Source: Patescibacteria group bacterium | Lineage (GTDB): Bacteria > Patescibacteriota > Patescibacteriia > Buchananbacterales > UBA6539 | Direction: 5' to 3' | Assembly: GCA_041662625.1 (NCBI GenBank) | Contig: JBAZSB010000001.1 | Span: forward strand, 246,467 to 310,466 | DNA: 64,000 bases | Shown: piece by piece, positions 32,769 through 50,982 of the stretch | Position numbering within the stretch: the stretch's first letter is position 1 | Layout of the letters: the number at the start of each line of letters is the position of its first letter | Notes under the pieces: model-generated | The model's database searches: none | What the model was told of the DNA's origin: nothing | The model's input: only the letters and a program-made list of their open reading frames with translations | Made by a program: the position numbers and the translations under genes

Positions 32769-34061
32769 TCAGTCAGCCAGTCGCTGGACTTCGCCGATGT
32801 TATCGACCACCTTCTGTACCGCCTTGGCGATGAGGTCCATGTTGCTTCTGGGACCCATCAAAATGGCATGGTGGACGACCACGCCACTGTGCTCGTTGGC
32901 TTCCTTACAGACCGACAGATCGAAGCGCTTGGGGTTAATCGCGTCCCAGTATTCATTGTCGAGGTGGTGACGCCGCTTGGTCCACGGCTTGTAAAGGTCG
33001 CACTTGTTCAATGAATCGTATGGCGGCTCGAAGGAACCGTCTTGGCCTTCTTCGAAACCGAGTTCGGCGTTCAGGGCCCGGCAGAATTTCCGATTGCCGA
33101 TTCCGAGATCCTCTGTGGCCAGACGAAACGCATAGTTGAAGTAGCTCTGCCGGGTGACTTGCGGCCGACGATACATCGTCAGAACGCCGGGAATCTGCTC
33201 CAACAGGCCGTTCAGATACTGGGCATTGTCATCGCGCTGGGCGACTTGTGCCGGTAAGCGGCTCAGTCCGCCAAGCAGGATTGCTGCTTGCCATTCCGTC
33301 AGCCGGCAGTTACCTGATTGCACGGTATTTCTTGGTTTGCCGGATCCTTCAAGGCCAAAGGCTTTGACGCCTGATTCGGCAAACGGCCGGCCGCAGTTAC
33401 GCAGCGAGTATAGCCGCTCGAACATCTTCCTGGTTTGGCAAGTGTTGTACCCGCCTTCACCACTGCTCAGGACTTTGGATTCCTGGAAGCTGAAGCAGCC
33501 AACATCGCTAAGGGTACCAACACCCTTGCCTTCCCATAACGAGCCGTGCTGGTGGGCGCAATCCTCAATGAGACGCAGATGGCGCTTCTTGCACAGTCGT
33601 TGCAGGCTTGCCATATCAGGCATGCAGCCGTAGAGATGCACGGCGATGACGGCTTTAGTCTTTGGCGTAATTGCCGCCTTGACCTTGTCGACGTCGATGC
33701 ACCAAGTGCTTGGTTCCACGTCAACCAGGATGGGAACGGCATTGACGTCGATGCAGGCCGCAGCCGTGGCTTGCCAGGTCATGCCTGGCACAATCACTTC
33801 ATCGAACGCGCCGATGTCGAGAGCTTCCAGCGCCAACTGGATCGCGACGGTTCCGTTGGCACAACAGGCACCGTATTTGGCGCCAAGGAAGGCAGCGAAC
33901 CGCCGGGCAAACTCCCATTCATAGGGGCCGTCATACGACCATTTCCCCGATCTGGTTATTGCCGCTAATCGTCTGACATCAGCTTCGTAGCCTCTTGGCC
34001 AGCGGGGCCATTTCTTACCAGGAGCAGCTACTGGCTTGCCACCGTTGATTGCCAGTTTCAT
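32769..34061 (-). CDS. DegT/DnrJ/EryC1/StrS-family PLP-dependent sugar aminotransferase, in a GC-rich island
   Basis: Fold-type I DegT pattern: ...KYGACCANGTVAIQLALEAL...VIAVHLYGCMPDM...LIEDCAHQHGS...GCFSFQESKVLSSGEGG. GGAGGGAGAAUC-AUG RBS. GC is much higher than the flanks. Confidence 0.8.
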   Translation of the reverse strand: MKLAINGGKPVAAPGKKWPRWPRGYEADVRRLAAITRSGKWSYDGPYEWEFARRFAAFLGAKYGACCANGTVAIQLALEALDIGAFDEVIVPGMTWQATAAACIDVNAVPILVDVEPSTWCIDVDKVKAAITPKTKAVIAVHLYGCMPDMASLQRLCKKRHLRLIEDCAHQHGSLWEGKGVGTLSDVGCFSFQESKVLSSGEGGYNTCQTRKMFERLYSLRNCGRPFAESGVKAFGLEGSGKPRNTVQSGNCRLTEWQAAILLGGLSRLPAQVAQRDDNAQYLNGLLEQIPGVLTMYRRPQVTRQSYFNYAFRLATEDLGIGNRKFCRALNAELGFEEGQDGSFEPPYDSLNKCDLYKPWTKRRHHLDNEYWDAINPKRFDLSVCKEANEHSGVVVHHAILMGPRSNMDLIAKAVQKVVDNIGEVQRLAD

Positions 34062-37517: not shown

Positions 37518-37526
37518 AATTTAATT

Positions 37527-37623
37527 GGTAGCCCCAAGCGGAATCGAACCGCTGTTACATGGATGCCACCCTATTGGGTGGTCGCCCGAAAGGGCGAAGA
37601 ACCTGGCGTCTCCCGACGTCGCC
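37527..37623 (-). other. tRNA-like 3' fragment (T-arm, acceptor 3' strand and encoded CCA) fused to the 26-nt motif shared with the tRNA-Gln locus; no matching 5' acceptor strand
   Basis: Minus-strand RNA ...catccatgtaac-agcgg-ttcgatt-ccgct-tggggct-a-cca. The required 5' partner agcccca is absent. Upstream is gcggcgacgtcgggagacgccag (motif at 37598..37623). Confidence 0.45.
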
Positions 37624-37733
37624 GCATGCTTATTTATTCATCTCATTTTTACCGCCACGGGGAATCTCCGCCGATGGCGGATGCGCCTTTTTTTATTAAT
37701 TAAGGTGGCGCAGAACCCCAAATATTGGCAATT

Positions 37734-37805
37734 TAGCCCGTGGGAGAATCGAACTCCCGTTACATGGATGAGAACCATGCGTCCTAGCCGCTAGACGAAC
37801 GGGCC
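37734..37805 (-). tRNA. tRNA-Glu (anticodon CUC)
   Basis: Manual fold: acceptor ggcccgt/acgggct (G1-U72), D-arm gtct-agcggcta-ggac, anticodon arm catgg-ttCTCat-ccatg, T-arm gggag-ttcgatt-ctccc, 72 nt. CCA not encoded. Confidence 0.8.
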
Positions 37806-37885
37806 ACGTATTTTGATTAGATTGGTAGACCGGTAGGTTGGTAGGTAGGCGCCTACCGTTCTACTCCCTACTTACTAACGGAAGT
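37806..37885. repeat. Intergenic palindromic repeat, family 1 (ggtagg/cctacc units plus gttagtaagtag), copy 1
   Basis: ...ggtagaccggtaggttggtaggtaggcgcctaccgttctactccctacttactaac... Confidence 0.65.
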
Positions 37886-38547: not shown

Positions 38548-39663
38548 TTAATCATTTTGTTCTAACTCTTTTAAAAGCTCTTTCTGGCGGCGGGATAATC
38601 GGGAAGGCGTTTTGACAATTATTTCAACCAACTGGTCACCCCGGCCGCGGCCATGAAGAATGGGTACACCTCTGCCTTTGAGCTGAAAGATTTTGCCGCT
38701 TTGGGTGGCTTCGGGAATTTTCAACCGAACCGTGCCGTCAAGAGTCTCAATATCAATTTTAGCACCTAAAGCCGCCTGAGTAAAAGAAATTTCTTTTTTA
38801 GTTTTCAAGTCAAAACCAGCTCGCTTAAACCGCAAGTCGGGCAAAACTTTGATGCGCAAATAAAGATCACCGGCTTGCCCGCCTTTATTGCCCGCCTGGC
38901 CTTTGCCGGCTAAACGGACAGTCTGGCCGTTATCAATTCCGGCCGGAATTTTAACTTTAATATGTTCAGTTTCTTTGGTGACACCCTGACCGCGGCACTG
39001 GCTGCATTCCTTTTCCGCTTTTTTGCCCGTACCTTCACAAGTGGGGCAGACACTGGGAAAGCCAATGCCAAAACCCATATTTCTCACCACTTGGCCGGTT
39101 CCCCGGCAAGTTGAGCAAGTCATGACTTTTGCGCCTGGTTCAGCGCCTTCGCCTTTGCATTTTTGACAGACACTATTTTTATTTAGGCTGAGTTCTTTTT
39201 CCGTACCAAAAACCGCTTCCTGAAAATCCAAGGTCAGCTCGGCTTCAATATCGGCACCCTGAAATTTACTAGCCCGGCGTGACTTGCTGCGGCTTGAGCC
39301 CATACCAAACAAATCACCAAAGATATCGCCTAAGTCGCCAAATTCAAAAGAGAAATTATTGCCGCCCTGGCCGCCTTGCTGGCCAAAAGCTGAAGCAAAA
39401 TCGGAAAAATCACGAAAGCCACCGGCACCAGAAAAACCGCCTTGTGAGCGGGCTTGTTCAAAAGTTTGGCCGTACTGGTCATACTGGGCTTTCTTTTCAG
39501 CGTTACCTAAAACGCTATAAGCCTCATTGATTTCTTTCATCTTGGCTTCATCGCCGCCTTTGTGCGGATGATGCTGATGGGCCATTTTGTAATAGGCTTT
39601 TTTAACTTCTTCCGGGCTGGCACCCTTAGAAATGCCTAAAGTTTGATAGTAGTCTTTTGCCAT
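38548..39663 (-). CDS. dnaJ: Chaperone DnaJ
   Basis: J-domain HPD (YYKMAHQHHPHKGG), G/F-rich region, four CxxCxGxG zinc-finger repeats. Confidence 0.9.
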   Translation of the reverse strand: MAKDYYQTLGISKGASPEEVKKAYYKMAHQHHPHKGGDEAKMKEINEAYSVLGNAEKKAQYDQYGQTFEQARSQGGFSGAGGFRDFSDFASAFGQQGGQGGNNFSFEFGDLGDIFGDLFGMGSSRSKSRRASKFQGADIEAELTLDFQEAVFGTEKELSLNKNSVCQKCKGEGAEPGAKVMTCSTCRGTGQVVRNMGFGIGFPSVCPTCEGTGKKAEKECSQCRGQGVTKETEHIKVKIPAGIDNGQTVRLAGKGQAGNKGGQAGDLYLRIKVLPDLRFKRAGFDLKTKKEISFTQAALGAKIDIETLDGTVRLKIPEATQSGKIFQLKGRGVPILHGRGRGDQLVEIIVKTPSRLSRRQKELLKELEQND

Positions 39664-39760
39664 AGGTTAGTAAGTAGGGCGGTAGGTTGGTAGGACGGTA
39701 GGATATTGAAATTATTCCTACCGATCTGCCGCTCTACCAACCTACTAATCTATTCTGCTT
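39664..39760. repeat. Intergenic palindromic repeat, family 1, copy 2 (about 30-bp imperfect stem)
   Basis: gttagtaagtagggcggtaggttggtaggacggtagga-N11-tcctaccgatctgccgctctaccaacctac. Confidence 0.7.
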
Positions 39761-42559: not shown

Positions 42560-42660
42560 TTGATTAATTTTTATTAGGAATTAGGAAGTTAAGAATTTAG
42601 GAGTTAGCACATTGTCTAAGTCTAATTCCTAATTTCCTAAATTCCTAAAGCCTAACTTCC
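42560..42660. repeat. Intergenic palindromic repeat, family 2 (aggaatt/aattcct units), copy 1
   Basis: ttaggaattaggaagttaagaatttaggagttag ... ctaattcctaatttcctaaattcctaaagcctaacttcctac. Confidence 0.7.
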
Positions 42661-43160
42661 TACTTCGCCACTTTCACCTTGGCCGGATAAATCACTTTAC
42701 CATGCAAAGTATAGCCGGCTTTGACTTCTTCAAAGATAACATCTGTTTCAAAACCTTCTTTTTCTTCATGACTGGCTGCTTCATGAAACTGGGGGTCAAA
42801 CTTTTCACCAACTGTTTTGATTTCTTCAATGCCAAGCTGTTTCAAAAAGTCTTCAAACTGTTTTTTAATATGGAAAAACCCAATTACCCAATCGGCTTTT
42901 TTTTGTTCGGGCGGCACATGCTGCAAAGCCAGTTTAAAATGGTCGAAAACCGGCAAAAGCTGGGCCACCAAAGCGGCATTGGCAAATTGGATTAATTCTC
43001 CTTGTCTTTTTTCGGTATCTTTCTTTAAATTCAAATAATCCGCCTTAGCCCGTTTCCAGCCGTCTAAATGTTCCTCGGCTTTTCTTTGGGCTAGCTCAAG
43101 TTCTGATTTTAGTTCATCGATATCAAAGTCGTTGTCTTGTTGTTGAGTTTTGTTTTGCAT
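42660..43160 (-). CDS. grpE: Nucleotide exchange factor GrpE
   Basis: Coiled-coil N-terminus, GrpE C-terminal beta domain, position within the hrcA-grpE-dnaK operon. Confidence 0.85.
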   Translation of the reverse strand: MQNKTQQQDNDFDIDELKSELELAQRKAEEHLDGWKRAKADYLNLKKDTEKRQGELIQFANAALVAQLLPVFDHFKLALQHVPPEQKKADWVIGFFHIKKQFEDFLKQLGIEEIKTVGEKFDPQFHEAASHEEKEGFETDVIFEEVKAGYTLHGKVIYPAKVKVAK

Positions 43161-43255
43161 AAATTAGTATTTAGTAAGTAGAACGGTAGATTGGTAGAAC
43201 GGTAGGTGCTTGCCTACCAATCTACTTTCCTACCGACCTACCGATCTAGGCTGTT
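43161..43255. repeat. Intergenic palindromic repeat, family 1, copy 3
   Basis: tttagtaagtagaacggtagattggtagaacggtagg-tgcttg-cctaccaatctactttcctaccgacctacc. Confidence 0.7.
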
Positions 43256-44160: not shown

Positions 44161-44586
44161 ATGGCCCCTTATCGATTTAGTTTCCGTCACCCTTTTTCCC
44201 GAGACGGCCACCTTAAACCCCTGATATCAGGGTGCCGGCTGGTTTTCCGGGTGGAAGTCAGATGCCGCAAAGGCGAGAAACAATGCTATGGCGTATTGGT
44301 CCTGATCAACGAATTGCCGGCTGCGGCAGGAGGTAACGACAGGTTCTTCGATTGGCTCTACAGCCGCCTCGAAAGTCGTGCAGTCAAACTGCCGGCCAAT
44401 CTGCTAGTCTGGGATAAAGGGATCGTTCGCACCAAAAGGACTATCAGAATTTCGTTTTCTTTCAAGCCCGAGAAGAGTGGCGACTTTATGACGGCTGCCG
44501 AGGAAGCCAGGGTTTCCTTAGTTGGTATGCAACAGCATATCGCTGAAGCAATCGCGCCTTTCGAAAGAGAATGCAGCCAGCAATAA
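44161..44586 (+). CDS. Hypothetical protein (141 aa) in a GC-rich island
   Basis: Strong promoter, SD and terminator frame the ORF. No recognisable family. Confidence 0.55.
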   Translation: MAPYRFSFRHPFSRDGHLKPLISGCRLVFRVEVRCRKGEKQCYGVLVLINELPAAAGGNDRFFDWLYSRLESRAVKLPANLLVWDKGIVRTKRTIRISFSFKPEKSGDFMTAAEEARVSLVGMQQHIAEAIAPFERECSQQ

Positions 44587-44737: not shown

Positions 44738-45805
44738 CTACACGCCGACTGGCTGTCCTGATTCAGCCGAGACATAGATAGCCTGGGCAAGAGCCACGGC
44801 TTTTCGGGCCTCTTTACCATCAACCACTGGCTGACGGCCCGACTGAATCGCCTCGGTGAAATCGCGCAGTTGAAGCAGATGGCCCTCACCCTTCAAAGCC
44901 GCAATCGGGTCTTTGGCTGCGGAACCGGTTCCCGATTCCCCGCCAATCTCAGCTTTGACTCTGTCATCTGCATCCTTGTGTTCGGCGTAATCGGCAAATT
45001 CCCAGAGTATGATTTTGCCGTCTTCGAGAACCACTGTACCCTTGGTGCCGTAGATTCCAAACCGCACCGCGCCACCCGGCCAAGTAGCGGTCGTGGACAT
45101 GACGGTACCCAATGCCCCGTTCTCGAATTCAAGAAGAGCACCGGCGAGATCTTCCATCTCTATCCCCTGATGGAATCTCTTTCTCGTCTGCCCAAAAACC
45201 CGGCTGATCGGTCCCAAAAACCACTGGGCCAAATCGAGTTGGTGGATACCTTGGTTGATGAGCGCTCCTCCACCATCGAACTTCAGCGTACCGCGCCAAG
45301 AGACTGATGTGTAGTAATCAGGTTCCCGCCACCAGGGAATGTGGACTAAGCAGGAAACAAACTGCCCAAAGCGGCCCTGGTCAATGGCCTGTTTTGTCAA
45401 CTGCGGCCCGCGCAGAAAACGACTCTGGAAGATACAGCCGAGTAAGACATCGGCCTGCTCCGCCGCAGCGATCAAATCGTCCGCCCGTGCGATATTAACC
45501 TCAATTGGTTTCTCGCACATGATGTGTTTACCTGCCTGAATACAGTCCAGGCCAATTTCCAGTCGCATGCCGCTTGGCACGCACAGGCAAACGGCATCTA
45601 TCTCCGGCCGCTCCAGCATTTCCCGAAAGTCAACATAACGGTCCACGCCATACTTCAAACCCAACCGTGAGGCCGCTGCATAAACTACGTCCGAAACAGC
45701 AACCAAATGGGCACCGGGAATACTGGCGATAGCATCGGCGTGCTTCGGCGCGATGTTGCCGCAGCCGATTATACCGTAACCGACTTTGTCTTTCTTACTA
45801 GCCAT
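44738..45805 (-). CDS. Gfo/Idh/MocA-family NAD(P)-dependent oxidoreductase, GC-rich
   Basis: N-terminal Rossmann motif VGYGIIGCGNIAPKHADAI...AVSDV; 355 aa. Confidence 0.8.
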   Translation of the reverse strand: MASKKDKVGYGIIGCGNIAPKHADAIASIPGAHLVAVSDVVYAAASRLGLKYGVDRYVDFREMLERPEIDAVCLCVPSGMRLEIGLDCIQAGKHIMCEKPIEVNIARADDLIAAAEQADVLLGCIFQSRFLRGPQLTKQAIDQGRFGQFVSCLVHIPWWREPDYYTSVSWRGTLKFDGGGALINQGIHQLDLAQWFLGPISRVFGQTRKRFHQGIEMEDLAGALLEFENGALGTVMSTTATWPGGAVRFGIYGTKGTVVLEDGKIILWEFADYAEHKDADDRVKAEIGGESGTGSAAKDPIAALKGEGHLLQLRDFTEAIQSGRQPVVDGKEARKAVALAQAIYVSAESGQPVGV

Positions 45806-45848: not shown

Positions 45849-46649
45849 TCAAAGTCCCAGCATTTGGTCCATCGTGTACCACCCAGCGGGTTTACCGGCA
45901 ATCCACTTAACCGTTGCCAACGCCCCTTCGGCAAAAACCTGGGGACTCTGAGCATGGTGCTCAAGGCACAGGGTTTCGCTTGGGCCGGCGAAGAGCACTG
46001 CGTGGTCACCGGCGATACTGCCAGCCCTGAGGGAATGAATGACGACCTGCTCGTCAAGTCTGGGGCTCTCGCTACGCCCAGCTTGACGACCGACGCTGAT
46101 CGCTAATTCAGGATTCCATTCCCGGGATTGACAGACGGTCTGAGCCAACATCCTGGCGGTGCCGCTGGGCGCATCCAGCTTTCGGCCATGGTGAGCCTCA
46201 ACAATCTCGATCTGAAAATACGGCGGCAGAGCCTTGGCCATTTTAGCCAACACTGCATTCATCACGTTGACGCCCAGGCTGAAGTTATTCGACACCAGCA
46301 CGGGCACGCTTCCGCTGAGCACTCTCAACGAAGCCAAGCGGGTTTCGCCCAAGCCTGTCGTGGCCACGACCACAGCGGTCTTGGTTTTGGCGGCGGACTC
46401 GGCTTGCACCACCACAGAATCCGGATCGTTGTTGAAGATCAACAGAACGTCAATGCCTGCAGTAGCTTGGGCGGGTAATGGTTCGCCTGGTTTGACTTGA
46501 ATCGTGCTGGTCGTGACCAAGCGGGTATCGATTCCAGAAACCGGACCGATACCAGGTTCTTTTATGGCTAATGCCTCAACCAACTGGCCCATTCTTCCCC
46601 CTACTCCTGAGATAATCAAACTTACTGGTTTCATCGTTCGCTCCTCCAA
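45849..46649 (-). CDS. Dihydrodipicolinate-reductase-like (DapB-family) oxidoreductase, GC-rich; probable start 46634
   Basis: N-terminal GVGGRMGQ dinucleotide-binding motif; C-terminal DapB-like domain (…EIVEAHHGRKLDAPSGTA…). Confidence 0.65.
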   Translation of the reverse strand: MEERTMKPVSLIISGVGGRMGQLVEALAIKEPGIGPVSGIDTRLVTTSTIQVKPGEPLPAQATAGIDVLLIFNNDPDSVVVQAESAAKTKTAVVVATTGLGETRLASLRVLSGSVPVLVSNNFSLGVNVMNAVLAKMAKALPPYFQIEIVEAHHGRKLDAPSGTARMLAQTVCQSREWNPELAISVGRQAGRSESPRLDEQVVIHSLRAGSIAGDHAVLFAGPSETLCLEHHAQSPQVFAEGALATVKWIAGKPAGWYTMDQMLGL

Positions 46650-47568: not shown

Positions 47569-48609
47569 ATGAAAAAAGAATTTGACCAAATTAAAAAACA
47601 GTACCAAAAATTAGAGCAGGATTTAAGTGATCCTAAAGTTATTGGTGATAAAGAAAAACTGAAGAAAATTTCCCAAGAGTTTAATCATTTGGAGCCAATC
47701 CTCAAAAAAATTGAAGAATTAGAAAAAACGGAACGGCAAATCGCTGCTTCTCAAGCCACACTCAGTGAAGAGACTGATAATGATTTATTGACTATTGCCC
47801 AGGAAGAACTGACTAGCCTTAGTGAACTTAAAAATGAATTGGAAAAAGATATCAATGACGCTTTAAAGCCATTTGATCCGATGAATCAAAAAAATATCAT
47901 CGTGGAAATCCGGGCGGGAACGGGTGGTGATGAAGCGGCTTTATTTGCTGCTAATTTATTTAGGATGTATTCTCGTTACGCCGAAACACAGGGTTGGCAG
48001 GCAAAAATTTTGAGTTCTAATCGGACTGGAATTGGCGGTTTTAAGGAAATAATTTTTGAAATTACCGGTAAAAATGTTTATTCCAATCTTAAATATGAAA
48101 GCGGCGTCCACCGGGTCCAAAGAGTACCGGAAACCGAAAAAAGCGGCCGGGTTCATACATCTGCGGCAACAGTTGCCGTTTTGCCCGAAGCCGAAGAAGT
48201 TGATATTGCCATTAAACCAGAAGATCTAAGAATTGATGTATTTCGCTCCGGCGGCCATGGCGGGCAAAGTGTTAACACTACTGATTCAGCGGTCCGGATC
48301 ACTTACCTGCCCACTAATACCGTTGTGACTTGCCAAGATGAAAAATCACAGCAAAAAAATAAAGTTAAAGCGATGCAAATTCTACGTTCCCGGCTTCTGG
48401 CCGCTGAACAGGAAAGATTAGCCAAGGAACGAGGTGAGCAAAGAAAATCGCAAATCGGTTCCGGCGACCGTTCGGAAAAAATCAGGACTTATAATTTTCC
48501 TCAAGACCGAGTGACTGACCATCGGCTCAAAGAAAATTGGCATAATATTATGGTGATTATGGATGGCAAAATCCAGCCAATTATTGATAAACTTAAAGAA
48601 GTTGAGTAA
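47569..48609 (+). CDS. prfA: Peptide chain release factor 1
   Basis: GGQ motif SGGHGGQSVNTTDSAVRITY; PxT-type tripeptide PET; 346 aa. Confidence 0.9.
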   Translation: MKKEFDQIKKQYQKLEQDLSDPKVIGDKEKLKKISQEFNHLEPILKKIEELEKTERQIAASQATLSEETDNDLLTIAQEELTSLSELKNELEKDINDALKPFDPMNQKNIIVEIRAGTGGDEAALFAANLFRMYSRYAETQGWQAKILSSNRTGIGGFKEIIFEITGKNVYSNLKYESGVHRVQRVPETEKSGRVHTSAATVAVLPEAEEVDIAIKPEDLRIDVFRSGGHGGQSVNTTDSAVRITYLPTNTVVTCQDEKSQQKNKVKAMQILRSRLLAAEQERLAKERGEQRKSQIGSGDRSEKIRTYNFPQDRVTDHRLKENWHNIMVIMDGKIQPIIDKLKEVE

Positions 48610-48639
48610 TAAAAAAAGGGGTGCTACCCTTTCACAAAG

Positions 48640-49110
48640 AACGATTTTAGGGGCGACGAAGGTCTGCCAACTGCTTTCTGAAAGTCGCGACTTCTTGTTG
48701 GTGTGATATCTCACGATGAGATGTCAGGTGGCGAGAATTGCAGTCGCCACGGTGAATCCAAGAAGGCAAACATTCGGGATTGTACGCACTTGGGAGTGTG
48801 TCTGTCATATGGAGTGGTCTTCGAATCAAACACCCCCCATCTTTACCACAGACGCAGCAAAGATGATTCTCGTAGGCAATCCGGCGCCTTACTGCCTGTC
48901 GGGCCTCCTCTCCCTCTGGCAGCCATAAAGCTGATTGTTCGTGCCGGTGGCGACACCGGCCCTGATGGACAGACTTTACTTCTCCAGCCGGGTTGTAGTG
49001 ACTCCTTAGTGAAGTCGCTGTTAGTGGCCAAAAAGGCCACCAAGTGATACCCTGACAGACGCAACATGTCTTACTGAATATGCCGGTTAGTTTGGGCATC
49101 ATACAAAGGA
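48640..49110. other. GC-rich, about 470-bp insert separating prfA from prmC; coding status doubtful, possibly a structured RNA or a degraded gene
   Basis: Only mutually antisense ORFs (151 aa on minus, 114 aa on plus) with no protein-like features. No convincing RBS. A sharp GC jump against the AT-rich flanks. Confidence 0.35.
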
Positions 49111-49152
49111 CCCTCCCTTCCTATACTATCAGCAAAGCAGGTATTTTTATTT

Positions 49153-50028
49153 ATGTCAAGGATAAAAAATAACAATAATACAAGGAATGAAATTAAAAAA
49201 ACCTTGGTTTTAGTTACCAGGTCTTTAAAATCAGCTAAAATTACAACTGCCCTACTTGATGCTGAAGTATTGCTAGCCTTTGTTTTGAAAAAGCCGAAAG
49301 AATTTTTATATACTCACCCTGAATATAAGCTAAATAAACAGCAACTAGCTCAGTTGAAACAAATGGTGAATCGGCGAGGCAAGGGTGAACCAGTGGCTTA
49401 CTTAAGAAATACTAAAGAATTTTATGACCTGGATTTTTATGTTGATAAACGTGTCTTAATCCCCCGTCCGGAAACAGAAGTATTGGTTGAAGAAGTGCTT
49501 AAGCAGTTCAGAGTTCAGAGTTCAGAGTTCAGAGCTATTGCTGATATTGGCACGGGATCTGGATGTATTGCAATTACCTTGGCTAAACATCTGCCAAAAG
49601 CTAAGATTTTAGCAACTGACATCTCTAAGTTAGCTCTAGATGTGGCTAGAAAAAACGCTAAAAAACATCAGGCTAAGATAAAATTTTATCATGGTGATTT
49701 ACTGGAACCACTAAAAAATAAAAGAATTGACATTATCGTTGCCAATCTTCCCTATTTGGATAATTACTATAAATCTTCAAAAAATCCTGGTTTAAAATTT
49801 GAGCCAAAAACCGCTTTAGAAGGTTACCAACAAGGTTTGGCAGTCTATGAAAAACTCTTCAAACAAATTGCCGGCCTAAAACATAAACCGAAAATAATCA
49901 TCTGCGAAATTGGACCAACGCAGGCGGAAAAAATGAAAAGGCTAACAAAAAAATACCTGCCTAAAAGTAAAACAGAAACAAAAAAAGACTTAGCCGGACT
50001 AAATCGTTTATTGATTACTAAGATTTAA
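49153..50028 (+). CDS. prmC: Release factor glutamine N5-methyltransferase PrmC/HemK
   Basis: NPPY-type motif VANLPY; motif I ADIGTGSGCIAI; directly downstream of prfA. Confidence 0.9.
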   Translation: MSRIKNNNNTRNEIKKTLVLVTRSLKSAKITTALLDAEVLLAFVLKKPKEFLYTHPEYKLNKQQLAQLKQMVNRRGKGEPVAYLRNTKEFYDLDFYVDKRVLIPRPETEVLVEEVLKQFRVQSSEFRAIADIGTGSGCIAITLAKHLPKAKILATDISKLALDVARKNAKKHQAKIKFYHGDLLEPLKNKRIDIIVANLPYLDNYYKSSKNPGLKFEPKTALEGYQQGLAVYEKLFKQIAGLKHKPKIIICEIGPTQAEKMKRLTKKYLPKSKTETKKDLAGLNRLLITKI

Positions 50029-50345
50029 AAAAAGAGACCTTAGTCAGTCAAGCTTACCAAACCAAGGCTTCTTATGAAGCAAGGTACGAACTATCAGGTG
50101 AGACGATGAATCGGACGAACTCTATCGCCCTGATAACGACCCCAAAAGTCCGGGTCTGGCTCAGGCCGATACGCCGGGATAGAGTCCATTATCGCCTGTA
50201 TGGTTGCAGCCGCTTCTGCGAACTCGTCCATAACCTGTCCTCCTATTAGACACGGGTTTATCCTTATAAATAATCTAACAAGATAATATAATTTTGGCAA
50301 ATAAAAAAAGACTTAGCCGGGCTAAATCGTTTGTTAATTGTTAAG
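49981..50345. repeat. Imperfect 42-bp direct repeats (49981..50022 and 50303..50345) duplicating the 3' end of prmC and bracketing a 270-bp GC-rich insert
   Basis: aaaaaagacttagccgg[ag]ctaaatcgttt[ag]tt[ga]att[ag][ct]taag seen in both copies; 5 mismatches in 42 positions. Confidence 0.75.
50094..50231 (-). CDS. 45-aa ORF inside the GC-rich insert, with a perfect AGGAGG RBS
   Basis: AGGAGGACAGGUU-AUG precedes MDEFAEAAATIQAIMDSIPAYRPEPDPDFWGRYQGDRVRPIHRLT. Confidence 0.45.
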   Translation of the reverse strand: MDEFAEAAATIQAIMDSIPAYRPEPDPDFWGRYQGDRVRPIHRLT

Positions 50346-50361
50346 TGTTAATTGTTAAAAG

Positions 50362-50982
50362 CTATCTATTCCCGTTTCTAATAATATTTTCCACCGCCGC
50401 CCATTTACTCTCGCCGTCATCAGGCGTCAAAATTACCACTTCATCACCTGGCGCCCCATGGAAATAAGTGACTGACGCCGTCAGCAATTTCCATTTCTTT
50501 TTGCCGTCAACCGCATACCACTCGCCGGCTTTTTCGTCCTGGACTAAAGTGGCCACCAATTGTTTTCTTTCCACCGGACCAATTTGTTTATAAATAAAAG
50601 AACCATCTTTGCGGATGGTTAATTTCAAAATATCACCTTCAACTAGTTTTGATTTCGAGGCATAATTGGCCGGCACGTTATATTCAATCCCGTCACCCCC
50701 AACCATCTTTTCACCGGTAAAAACGCCTTCGATAATCCGTTCACTGCCTTCGCTTAAATTAATAAAGCCTTCACTGGCTTCTTTAGTATCTTTAAGGCTA
50801 TCAAGTAAAGCAGCCGGATTAACATCTTTTTCATTCAATAACTTCAAAGCTTTCTTGATATTAGCTTGAGTATTTTCTAAAATATCCTTCAATAAATCCA
50901 AATGACGTTTGGTATCTTCGTCATCTAATTCTGGAGTTTCAAAGTTTTCGTCTTTTTGATTTTTTTTCTTTTTTCCCACCAT
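50362..50982 (-). CDS. Hypothetical protein (206 aa)
   Basis: Charged N-terminal region; no recognisable motif. Confidence 0.5.
   Translation of the reverse strand: MVGKKKKNQKDENFETPELDDEDTKRHLDLLKDILENTQANIKKALKLLNEKDVNPAALLDSLKDTKEASEGFINLSEGSERIIEGVFTGEKMVGGDGIEYNVPANYASKSKLVEGDILKLTIRKDGSFIYKQIGPVERKQLVATLVQDEKAGEWYAVDGKKKWKLLTASVTYFHGAPGDEVVILTPDDGESKWAAVENIIRNGNR

What the first reader, a model, noticed from the sequence alone, without database searches (positions are those of the whole stretch)
49981..50345. 270-bp GC-rich insert bracketed by a duplicated prmC 3' end, carrying a perfectly RBS-led 45-aa ORF
The last about 42 nt of prmC (aaaaaagacttagccggactaaatcgtttattgattactaag) recur, with 5 mismatches, 280 bp downstream. 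Between the copies lies GC-rich DNA encoding, on the minus strand, AGGAGG-N7-ATG and a 45-aa acidic/Pro-rich peptide (MDEFAEAAATIQAIMDSIPAYRPEPDPDFWGRYQGDRVRPIHRLT). Flanking direct repeats that duplicate a gene end are the footprint of site-specific integration or a miniature insertion element. The cargo peptide resembles small antitoxin or regulatory peptides.
Basis: seen in the sequence. Interest (0 to 1): 0.6.

Follow-up and report, generated by a model that had tools for sequence, protein, structure and literature searches.

The report
Foreign mini-gene inserted in prmC's end
A 323-base piece of foreign DNA landed in the last 17 codons of the prmC gene of an uncultured Patescibacteria bacterium; prmC stayed whole because its end is present twice, the displaced original end looks like the transcription stop signal of the opposing operon, and the small gene on the insert has no known relatives, so this is a well-documented but fairly ordinary insertion scar.

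Summary
Positions 49976-50028 (the end of prmC) recur at 50299-50351: 45 of 53 bases match, both copies are in frame, and both end in TAA. Between them lie 270 bases carrying AGGAGG-N7-ATG and a 45-codon ORF on the minus strand.

Four more distant relatives have the empty site, with the prmC stop 1-26 nt from the stop of a convergent 206-aa gene. The downstream copy sits 10 nt from that stop, so it is the displaced original end. It also forms a hairpin plus T-run on the minus strand, the predicted terminator of the 206-aa operon.

The insert is a complete antisense unit: promoter-like site, SD, ORF, and its own hairpin plus T7. It is GC-rich and SD-led in a genome whose native genes are AT-rich and mostly lack an SD.

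The sister lineage (L005) has the same cassette at 90% identity plus about 350 extra bases. A third lineage (L006) shares the junction and promoter but carries different cargo.

The ORF has no homologue among 1.84 billion representative proteins, and dN/dS is about 0.7. No recombinase, inverted repeats or further copies were found.

Verdict: a relic of an integration at a hotspot, not a miniature insertion element and not a recognisable antitoxin.

The parts
49153..50028 (+). prmC (release-factor glutamine methyltransferase), intact, 291 aa
   Evidence: Pfam PrmC_N and MTS. Homologues are named as release-factor N5-glutamine methyltransferase.
49976..50028 (+). Functional copy of the prmC 3' end (last 17 codons plus TAA). 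It carries two derived changes (ACA for ATA, GGA for GGG) that weaken the embedded hairpin.
   Evidence: The terminator scan lists only the other copy.
50027..50073 (-). The cassette's own terminator: an imperfect hairpin (50073->50037) followed by T7 (50033->50027). The T-run overlaps the prmC stop codon.
   Evidence: RNAalifold of window plus L005: six one-sided changes in the stem (A-U to G-U, U-A to U-G twice, U-G to U-A, G-U to G-C) all keep pairing.
50094..50231 (-). 45-codon ORF ('gene B'), MDEFAEAAATIQAIMDSIPAYRPEPDPDFWGRYQGDRVRPIHRLT
   Evidence: called as a gene by the collection's gene calls. One homologue, P0002, at 80% identity. dN 0.102, dS 0.144. AlphaFold predicts one N-terminal helix and the rest at low confidence.
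50239..50244 (-). Shine-Dalgarno AGGAGG, 7 nt before the ATG, identical in L005
50245..50256 (-). Junction of a roughly 350-nt deletion relative to L005, lying between two SD-like repeats (AATTGGAGGA / AATAGGAGGA in L005). The deletion removed a 116-codon upstream ORF.
50272..50300 (-). Promoter-like site TTGCCA-17-TAGATT with TG. Its position and 17-nt spacing are conserved in L005 and in L006 (TTGACA-17-TAAAAT).
50299..50351 (+). Displaced original prmC 3' end (non-functional). It keeps the states shared by all relatives and the ancestral distance of 10 nt to the 206-aa gene stop.
50303..50328 (-). Intrinsic-terminator-like site of the convergent 206-aa operon: GATTTAGCCCGGCTAAGTC plus T7
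   Evidence: All 56 pair cells pair on the minus strand in 7 sequences.
50362..50982 (-). Convergent 206-aa conserved hypothetical gene, the last gene of an operon that includes a TraG/VirD4-like ATPase

Best explanation
A short piece of foreign DNA was integrated into the last 17 codons of prmC in the ancestor of a small Patescibacteria clade (window strain, L005, L006).

In the ancestral state prmC and a 206-aa gene converge almost stop-to-stop. The hairpin encoded by the prmC codons KKDLAGLN, followed on the opposite strand by a T-run, acts as the terminator of the 206-aa operon.

The integration left prmC intact because a second copy of its 3' end lies on the prmC side of the insert. The displaced original end stayed next to the 206-aa gene. 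I infer that it survives there because it still terminates that operon.

What remains of the insert in the window is one self-contained antisense transcription unit: promoter, strong SD, 45-codon ORF and its own terminator. It is a deletion derivative of the two-ORF cassette still present in L005.

The peptide may be made but shows no sign of purifying selection. The selected parts today are most probably the two terminators and the intact prmC end.

- **Shown:** the insertion, the duplication, the empty sites, the foreign composition, and the anatomy of the cassette.
- **Inferred:** that integration was site-specific (attL/attR left by a recombinase-bearing element that has since decayed; my estimate about 35-40%), that the displaced end works as a terminator, and that the ORF has little or no function.
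For: **Empty sites.**
- L007, L008, L009-L012 and L013 have 26, 4, 5 and 1 nt respectively between the prmC and 206-aa gene ends.
- The downstream copy lies 10 nt from the 206-aa stop.
- It keeps ATA and GGG, as all relatives do.

**Clade distribution.**
- Only the window, L005 and L006 carry an insert, and they are each other's closest relatives: the 206-aa protein is 96% and 90% identical, against 78% or less for the rest.
- They are the only three members of that protein's 90%-identity cluster.
- All three share the junction TTTTTTTATTT|G(C/A)CA(A/G)AATTA and a promoter with 17-nt spacing.

**Foreign signature.**
- The ORF is 56% GC with a perfect AGGAGG.
- 5 of the 6 genes with GC >= 0.52 have an SD matching at least 5 of 6 positions. 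Only 2 of the 42 AT-rich genes do.

**Complete unit.** Promoter, SD, ORF, and a hairpin plus T7 whose six one-sided stem substitutions between the window and L005 all keep pairing.

**Terminator in the prmC end.**
- The scan lists it on the minus strand.
- 100% of pair cells pair on the minus strand, including one compensatory change (L006). In L013 a further change extends the stem. On the plus strand the six G-U cells would be C-A mismatches.

**Deletion derivative.** L005 has 350 extra nucleotides between two SD-like repeats.

**A second scar of the same layout.** In the same window tRNA-Glu is followed by a displaced tRNA 3' half. Direct repeats that include a gene's 3' end are the standard mark of integrase-mediated integration (10.1101/2020.11.02.365908, read).
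Against: - No integrase or other recombinase lies at the locus in the window or in L006. The L005 contig is only 2 kb long.
- The insert is 270-700 nt, far below the smallest integrase-bearing islands (3.5 kb).
- The history is not cleanly vertical. The cassette differs by only about 10% between the window and L005 at all site classes, while synonymous sites of the adjacent 206-aa gene differ by 43% (dS 0.63).
- L005's displaced end resembles L006's degenerate hairpin rather than the window's well-kept copy.
- In L005 the sequence to the left of the cassette is not prmC.
- The pair statistics for the terminator hairpin are not significant on seven sequences (142 of 500 shuffles reach the observed values).
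- Terminator and promoter activity are predictions only.
Confidence: 0.55

Rival explanations
1. The insert is a working small-protein gene, for example a regulatory peptide or the surviving half of a two-gene module, kept by selection. The duplication is only the trace of how it arrived.
For: - SD, ATG and reading frame are conserved between the window and L005, with no indel in 230 nt.
- The core DSIPAYRPEPDPDF.G.YQGDRVRPI has 2 changes in 26 residues.
- The unit has its own promoter, and a terminator whose substitutions keep pairing.
- The ORF survived a deletion that fused it directly to the promoter.
- Several gene callers predict it.
Against: - dN/dS is about 0.7 (10 non-synonymous and 4 synonymous changes), and differences are not enriched at third codon positions.
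- The antisense frame is open too and scores a lower dN/dS.
- No relative was found among 1.84 billion representative proteins or in Pfam, PHROGs, PADLOC or PDB.
- Only one helix is predicted with confidence.
- The ORF is missing from the NCBI source list, whereas its neighbours are present.
Confidence: 0.3
2. The cassette is still mobile: a small promoter-ORF-terminator module exchanged between related lineages and inserted at terminator A/T-runs. The 53-nt duplication in the window is a fairly recent product of that process.
For: - The cassette differs by about 10% between the window and L005 in the ORF, UTR and promoter alike, against 43% at synonymous sites of the neighbouring gene.
- Similarity stops sharply at both cassette ends, and the flanks differ on both sides.
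- Both ends carry TAAAAAAAG(A) in both lineages.
- L006 has different cargo at the same junction.
- The window's displaced copy is much better preserved than those of L005 and L006.
Against: - Only two copies are known, both at the orthologous site.
- No copy turned up elsewhere in the window or in the collections searched.
- The A-runs are simply the T-tracts of two terminators.
- No recombinase or inverted repeats were found.
- Recombination between relatives could give the same pattern; prmC itself is mosaic, 97% to 69% identical to L006 along its length.
Confidence: 0.1
3. The GC-rich segment encodes a structured or antisense RNA, not a peptide, that acts on prmC or on the convergent operon.
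For: Conservation is uniform and independent of codon position. The predicted transcript is antisense to the prmC 3' region.
Against: - Folding is no better than shuffled sequence (z -1.06 and -1.42).
- Rfam gives no match even at E <= 10.
- Outside the terminator stem there is essentially no covariation (one changed pair kept on the minus strand, none on the plus strand).
- The cassette's own terminator ends the transcript at the prmC stop codon, leaving almost no antisense overlap.
Confidence: 0.04
4. It is a miniature transposable element (MITE) with a target-site duplication.
For: A short insert flanked by direct repeats.
Against: - The repeat is 53 nt long, 85% identical, and ends exactly at a stop codon.
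- The insert has no terminal inverted repeats.
- It is single-copy in the window and absent from the collections searched.
Confidence: 0.02

Closest known systems
attL/attR scars of integrase-mediated integration into the 3' end of a gene (genomic islands, prophages, integrative elements at tRNA, tmRNA and some protein-coding genes)
   Same: - Same layout: intact gene, foreign DNA, displaced 3' fragment of the same gene as a direct repeat.
- The repeat length (53 nt) falls within the reported 15-221 nt range.
- The repeat contains a symmetric hairpin.
- The insert is variably present among relatives.
- Its composition differs from the host genome.
   Different: - No integrase is present.
- The cargo is only 270-700 nt.
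- The repeats are 85% rather than near 100% identical.
- The target is prmC; I know of no described element that uses it, and one literature search found none.
Bidirectional or shared intrinsic terminators between convergent genes (established from transcript-end mapping in model bacteria; from my own knowledge)
   Same: A hairpin flanked by an A-run and a T-rich run sits between two convergent genes and is predicted to terminate the minus-strand operon.
   Different: Here the hairpin lies inside the coding sequence of one gene (codons DLAGLN). After the insertion it exists twice, once coding and once as a free-standing terminator.
Orphan (lineage-restricted) small ORFs on horizontally acquired DNA
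   Same: - The ORF is short.
- It has no homologues.
- It has a foreign GC content and SD signature.
- It is under weak constraint.
   Different: It comes with a complete and partly conserved promoter, SD and terminator set, and it sits at a site with cargo turnover among sister lineages.
Type II antitoxins and small regulatory peptides
   Same: Only its size, its acidic character and its strong SD.
   Different: It matches no family. It has no adjacent toxin. The upstream ORF of L005 also has no family.

Membership tests
Integrase-type integrated element or its scar | [quoted passage not shown] | tested here: met
Integrase-type integrated element or its scar | Variable presence: relatives with an uninterrupted (empty) site | tested here: met
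   L007, L008, L009-L012 and L013.
Integrase-type integrated element or its scar | A tyrosine or serine recombinase gene within the element | tested here: not met
   The only ORFs between the repeats are the 45-aa ORF and its antisense frame. L006 carries a single 100-aa ORF with no Pfam match. The L005 contig is too short to tell.
Integrase-type integrated element or its scar | Composition that differs from the host genome | tested here: met
   GC 0.56 against about 0.40, and a perfect SD in a genome that mostly lacks one.
Integrase-type integrated element or its scar | Excision and integration activity (circular form, attP) | not testable with these tools
   Needs raw reads or an experiment.
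MITE / miniature insertion element | Terminal inverted repeats | tested here: not met
   the only long inverted matches come from the palindromic prmC end itself.
MITE / miniature insertion element | A short, identical target-site duplication | tested here: not met
   The repeat is 53 nt and 85% identical.
MITE / miniature insertion element | Multiple dispersed copies | tested here: not met
   one other copy only, at the orthologous site.
Type II toxin-antitoxin antitoxin | Sequence membership of a known antitoxin family | tested here: not met
Type II toxin-antitoxin antitoxin | An adjacent co-transcribed toxin gene | tested here: not met
   None in the window. The upstream ORF in L005 has no family or homologue.
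Intrinsic (factor-independent) terminator, for 50303-50328 on the minus strand | A G+C-containing stem-loop followed directly by a T-run at the end of an operon | tested here: met
   8 pairs, then T7, 34 nt past the 206-aa gene stop.
Intrinsic (factor-independent) terminator, for 50303-50328 on the minus strand | Pairing kept in evolution | tested here: inconclusive
   100% of cells pair, with 1 compensatory and 6 wobble changes that fit the minus strand only. However, 142 of 500 shuffles do as well.
Intrinsic (factor-independent) terminator, for 50303-50328 on the minus strand | Transcripts end there | not testable with these tools
   Needs 3'-end mapping.
Known structured RNA families (Rfam) | A match to a covariance model | tested here: not met

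The most novel reading that the evidence does not exclude
The locus is a recombination hotspot at which recombinase-less promoter-ORF-terminator modules are swapped between related Patescibacteria. They would insert at the A/T-run of a terminator embedded in prmC and duplicate the gene end as they do so. That would be a miniature integrative cassette system riding on a host or helper recombinase, of which the tRNA-Glu scar in the same window would be a second trace.
Probability: 0.07. Interest if true: 0.6.

Novelty: new member of a known kind. Interest (0 to 1): 0.27.

Why it matters
It is a clean, small example of three things:
- a streamlined genome with stop-to-stop convergent genes can accept foreign DNA without losing either gene's 3' end signals;
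- a displaced coding fragment can persist as a terminator;
- an orphan small ORF can ride in with a full expression kit.

It also gives a practical marker for recently acquired genes in this Patescibacteria genome: GC-rich sequence plus a strong SD, against AT-rich native genes without an SD.

It does not reveal a new mechanism or a new functional family.

Tried and rejected
**Searches with no result**
- Rfam over the whole window at gathering thresholds, and over 48400-50500 at E <= 10, gave nothing at the insert.
- Single-strand folding of the insert on both strands was not better than shuffles.
- Pfam, PHROGs, PADLOC and PDB on the 45-aa and 68-aa ORFs, the antisense ORF, the L005 upstream ORF and the L006 ORF gave no family.
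- A profile search of 1.84 billion representative proteins returned only the query's own cluster plus two repetitive chance hits.
- A word-based search for the L005 upstream ORF found nothing.

**Collection scans**
- Genome and metagenome scans with the peptide alignment found nothing.
- The same scans with the 206-aa alignment found nothing, because the tool chose low-complexity Lys-run patterns.
- Two scans of viral contigs and BLAST against phages and plasmids found no real match.
- An exact look-up of ribosomal protein L31, tried as a way to reach sister-lineage contigs, returned only the same strain.

**Ideas dropped**
- The L006 100-aa ORF and the L005 upstream ORF are not detectably related.
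- I first took the upstream GC-rich island (48610-49152) for a structured RNA (z -4.8). It is a small Cys/His-rich protein gene with homologues at the same position in L007 and L008.
- The 10-nt TAAAAAAAGA at both cassette ends could be read as a target duplication. I rejected this because both are the T-tracts of terminators.
- The literature search for prmC as an attachment site found nothing relevant.

Full report
**Where we are.** The window comes from an uncultured Patescibacteria (CPR) genome. The public name of the neighbouring protein is 'MAG... Patescibacteria group bacterium', and the longest contig carrying these proteins is 922 kb. The local gene order is rpmE, prfA, prmC on the plus strand (prmC at 49153..50028; Pfam PrmC_N and MTS). 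These converge on a minus-strand operon made up of a 206-aa conserved hypothetical gene (50362..50982), a 178-aa methyltransferase-like gene, and an 857-aa TraG/VirD4-like ATPase.

- Positions 49976-50028 and 50299-50351 are a 53-nt direct repeat: 45 of 53 bases identical, spacing 323 nt.
- The next best ungapped match of this 53-mer in the window is 31/53 on the plus strand (36/53 on the minus strand, not inspected further; the repeat is partly palindromic), and shuffled versions never exceed 33/53. The A-run therefore does not explain it.
- Both copies keep the prmC reading frame and stop at the same position (…KKDLAGLNRLLITKI* and …KKDLAGLNRLLIVKC*).
- The 270 nt between them carry, on the minus strand, AGGAGG (50244->50239), 7 nt, ATG (50231) and 45 codons.
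- The structure is base-for-base identical in contigs from three other samples, so it is not an assembly artefact.

**Empty sites exist.** I retrieved prmC homologues and then their contigs.
- Four more distant lineages have prmC and the 206-aa gene almost stop-to-stop. They are L007, L008, L009-L012 and L013, with PrmC 67-72% and the 206-aa protein 67-78% identical to the window. The gaps are 26, 4, 5 and 1 nt.
- In the window the downstream copy ends 10 nt from the 206-aa stop, which is the ancestral geometry.
- That copy also keeps two states shared by every relative (ATA Ile and GGG Gly). The copy now attached to prmC has ACA and GGA.
- The downstream copy is therefore the displaced original end, and 323 nt were added on the prmC side of it.

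**Why the displaced end may persist.**
- On the minus strand the prmC codons KKDLAGLN read GATTTAGCCCGGCTAAGTC followed by T7. The terminator scan lists this site at 50328->50310, 34 nt past the stop of the 206-aa gene.
- Across seven sequences (both window copies and five relatives) all 56 stem cells pair on the minus strand. There are six G-U cells and one compensatory T-A to C-G change in L006. In L013 the stem is lengthened by a change that costs a Gly-to-Lys replacement.
- On the plus strand the G-U cells would be C-A mismatches, so the hairpin fits the minus-strand RNA.
- The statistics are weak with seven sequences (142 of 500 shuffles reach the observed values). I treat the terminator role as a well-founded inference, not as shown.
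- The coding copy has a G-to-A change that turns a G-C pair into G-U, and the scan does not list it. That fits relaxed terminator constraint on that copy.

**Anatomy of the insert.** Read on the minus strand it contains:
- a promoter-like site, TTGCCA-17-TAGATT with TG (50300->50272);
- the SD and the ORF (50231->50094);
- an imperfect hairpin (50073->50037) followed by T7 (50033->50027), which overlaps the prmC stop codon.

Between the window and L005 this stem carries six one-sided substitutions, and every one keeps the pair. The insert is thus a complete transcription unit that ends exactly where prmC ends.

**Foreign signature.** In this window 40 of 42 AT-rich genes (GC 0.34-0.47) have no SD, taking an SD as a match to at least 5 of the 6 positions of AGGAGG. 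Five of the six genes with GC >= 0.52 have one. These are a DegT-type aminotransferase, a GFO/IDH/MocA oxidoreductase, a 141-aa ORF, the Cys-rich 151-aa ORF and this 45-aa ORF. The insert belongs to the second class on both counts.

**Relatives of the insert.**
- The peptide has exactly one homologue in the 5.8-billion-cluster collection: P0002, 46 aa, 80% identical.
- It has no relative among 1.84 billion representative proteins searched with a profile.
- P0002 lies on L005, a 2-kb contig of another assembly, next to the same 206-aa gene (96% identical protein).
- The cassette aligns without gaps over 230 nt at 90.4% identity, and the promoter region aligns at 92%.
- L005 has about 350 extra nucleotides between promoter and SD. 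They hold a 116-codon ORF with its own GGAGGA and are bounded by AATTGGAGGA and AATAGGAGGA. The window looks like a deletion between these two SD-like repeats.
- That upstream ORF has no family and no homologue.
- L006, the next closest lineage (206-aa protein 90% identical), has at the same place a different 100-aa minus-strand ORF. It shares the junction TTTTTT(T)ATTT|GACAGAATTA… and a TTGACA-17-TAAAAT promoter at the same spacing.
- In L005 and L006 the sequence where the displaced prmC end should be is a different AT-rich hairpin plus T-run. It may be a degenerate descendant of that end that kept only its terminator shape. The right flank of L006 is homologous to the prmC tail and spacer of L007 by my reading.

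**Age and selection.**
- Between the window and L005 the 206-aa gene has dN 0.021 and dS 0.63 (54 synonymous and 10 non-synonymous changes).
- The 45-codon ORF has dN 0.102 and dS 0.144 (4 synonymous, 10 non-synonymous). Its differences are spread evenly over codon positions, and the antisense frame is also open.
- First conclusion: the peptide shows no purifying selection in the only comparison available.
- Second conclusion: the whole cassette (ORF, UTR, promoter) is about four times less diverged than neutral sites next door. The simplest reading is that the two lineages shared the cassette more recently than they split, by recombination or transfer.
- The locus is mosaic in other ways. prmC identity between the window and L006 runs from 97% at the 5' end down to 69-78%. 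In L005 the sequence to the left of the cassette is not prmC at all.
- I therefore cannot say whether there was one old insertion followed by exchange and cargo turnover, or repeated insertion at one hotspot.

**How the duplication arose.**
- The layout is that of attL/attR after integration into a gene's 3' end. Such direct repeats are reported at 15-221 nt and commonly include the target's 3' part (10.1101/2020.11.02.365908).
- A second scar of the same layout lies in the same window. tRNA-Glu(CTC) at 37733..37806 (minus strand) is followed 167 nt downstream by a displaced tRNA 3' half. The fragment starts in the anticodon loop, has its own compensated T-stem, and is followed by CCA.
- Against integration: no recombinase is present at either scar, and the cargo is tiny.
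- Selection alone would retain only those insertions that kept prmC whole, so the exact fit to the stop codon does not prove site-specific recombination.
- I put integrase-mediated integration followed by decay at about 35-40%. Illegitimate or homology-assisted insertion takes most of the rest.

**What it is not.**
- Not a MITE: no inverted ends, single copy, and a long diverged repeat.
- Not a known RNA: no Rfam match, and folding z of -1.1 and -1.4.
- Not a recognisable antitoxin or defence component.
- AlphaFold gives one N-terminal helix (residues 2-17) and a low-confidence Pro-rich tail, so there was no fold worth searching with.

**Verdict.** This is a real and well-bounded insertion scar at a local hotspot, in a genome where convergent genes share a terminator embedded in coding sequence. 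Its cargo is an orphan SD-led mini-gene of doubtful function. It is neat, but it fits within known kinds.

Noticed in passing
window 37526-37806 (minus strand): tRNA-Glu(CTC) at 37733..37806 is followed 167 nt downstream by a displaced tRNA 3' half (37529-37565, then CCA at 37526-37528). It is 29/37 identical to the gene and starts in the anticodon loop with 12 identical bases (CATCCATGTAAC). It has its own compensated T-stem (AGCGG/CCGCT against GGGAG/CTCCC). This is a second gene-3'-end duplication around a short GC-rich insert. No integrase lies nearby.
   Followed up: partly
window 48647-49102 (minus strand); L007 220-327; L008 2753-2863; L006 2-109: The 540-nt GC-rich spacer between prfA and prmC holds a 151-aa Cys/His-rich ORF with a strong SD. 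It has two repeats of CxxC…(Y/F)NP…HxGxC. Single-repeat homologues sit at the same place in L007 and L008 (tblastn E 2e-6 and 3e-4), and L006 shares it. L009 and L013 have only 57-67 nt there. It matches no Pfam family and is absent from the NCBI source list. The region also folds unusually well (z -4.8 on the minus strand).
   Followed up: partly
whole window: There are two classes of genes. About 42 are AT-rich (GC 0.34-0.47) and almost never have a Shine-Dalgarno. Six are GC-rich (>= 0.52) and five of those have a strong SD. The GC-rich set includes a DegT/DnrJ/EryC1 aminotransferase (32769..34061), a GFO/IDH/MocA oxidoreductase (44738..45805), DapB (45849..46649) and a 141-aa ORF (44161..44586). 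These are probably acquired genes.
   Followed up: partly
window 49987-50005 and 50310-50328; same position in L006-L013: The prmC codons DLAGLN form a 19-nt near-palindrome preceded by the KK A-run. On the minus strand this is a hairpin plus T7. Substitutions in relatives keep minus-strand pairing, twice at the cost of an amino-acid change (N to D in L006, G to K in L013).
   Followed up: yes
window 49505-49532; L006 about 500-700: prmC carries a perfect 14-nt tandem repeat (AGTTCAGAGTTCAG x2, coding FRVQSSEFR). At the same variable spot L006's PrmC has about 32 extra residues in two blocks.
   Followed up: no
window 37810-37853, 39667-39702, 43171-43206: A repeated GGTAGG-rich motif (TTAGTAAGTAG..CGGTAG.TTGGTAG.ACGGTAGG, 89% identical between two copies) lies directly upstream of dnaJ (38548..39663), of the grpE-like gene (42660..43160) and of tRNA-Glu. 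It may be a shared promoter or operator of the heat-shock genes.
   Followed up: no
window 49153-50028 against L006 160-1131: prmC identity to L006 is strongly mosaic: 94-97% over the first 150 nt and 69-78% further on. This suggests recombination between lineages at this locus.
   Followed up: no
L005 1769-2001: Beyond the cassette's terminator, where prmC should follow, L005 has 171+ nt of AT-rich sequence with stops in all frames and no similarity to prmC or to the window. The contig ends there.
   Followed up: partly
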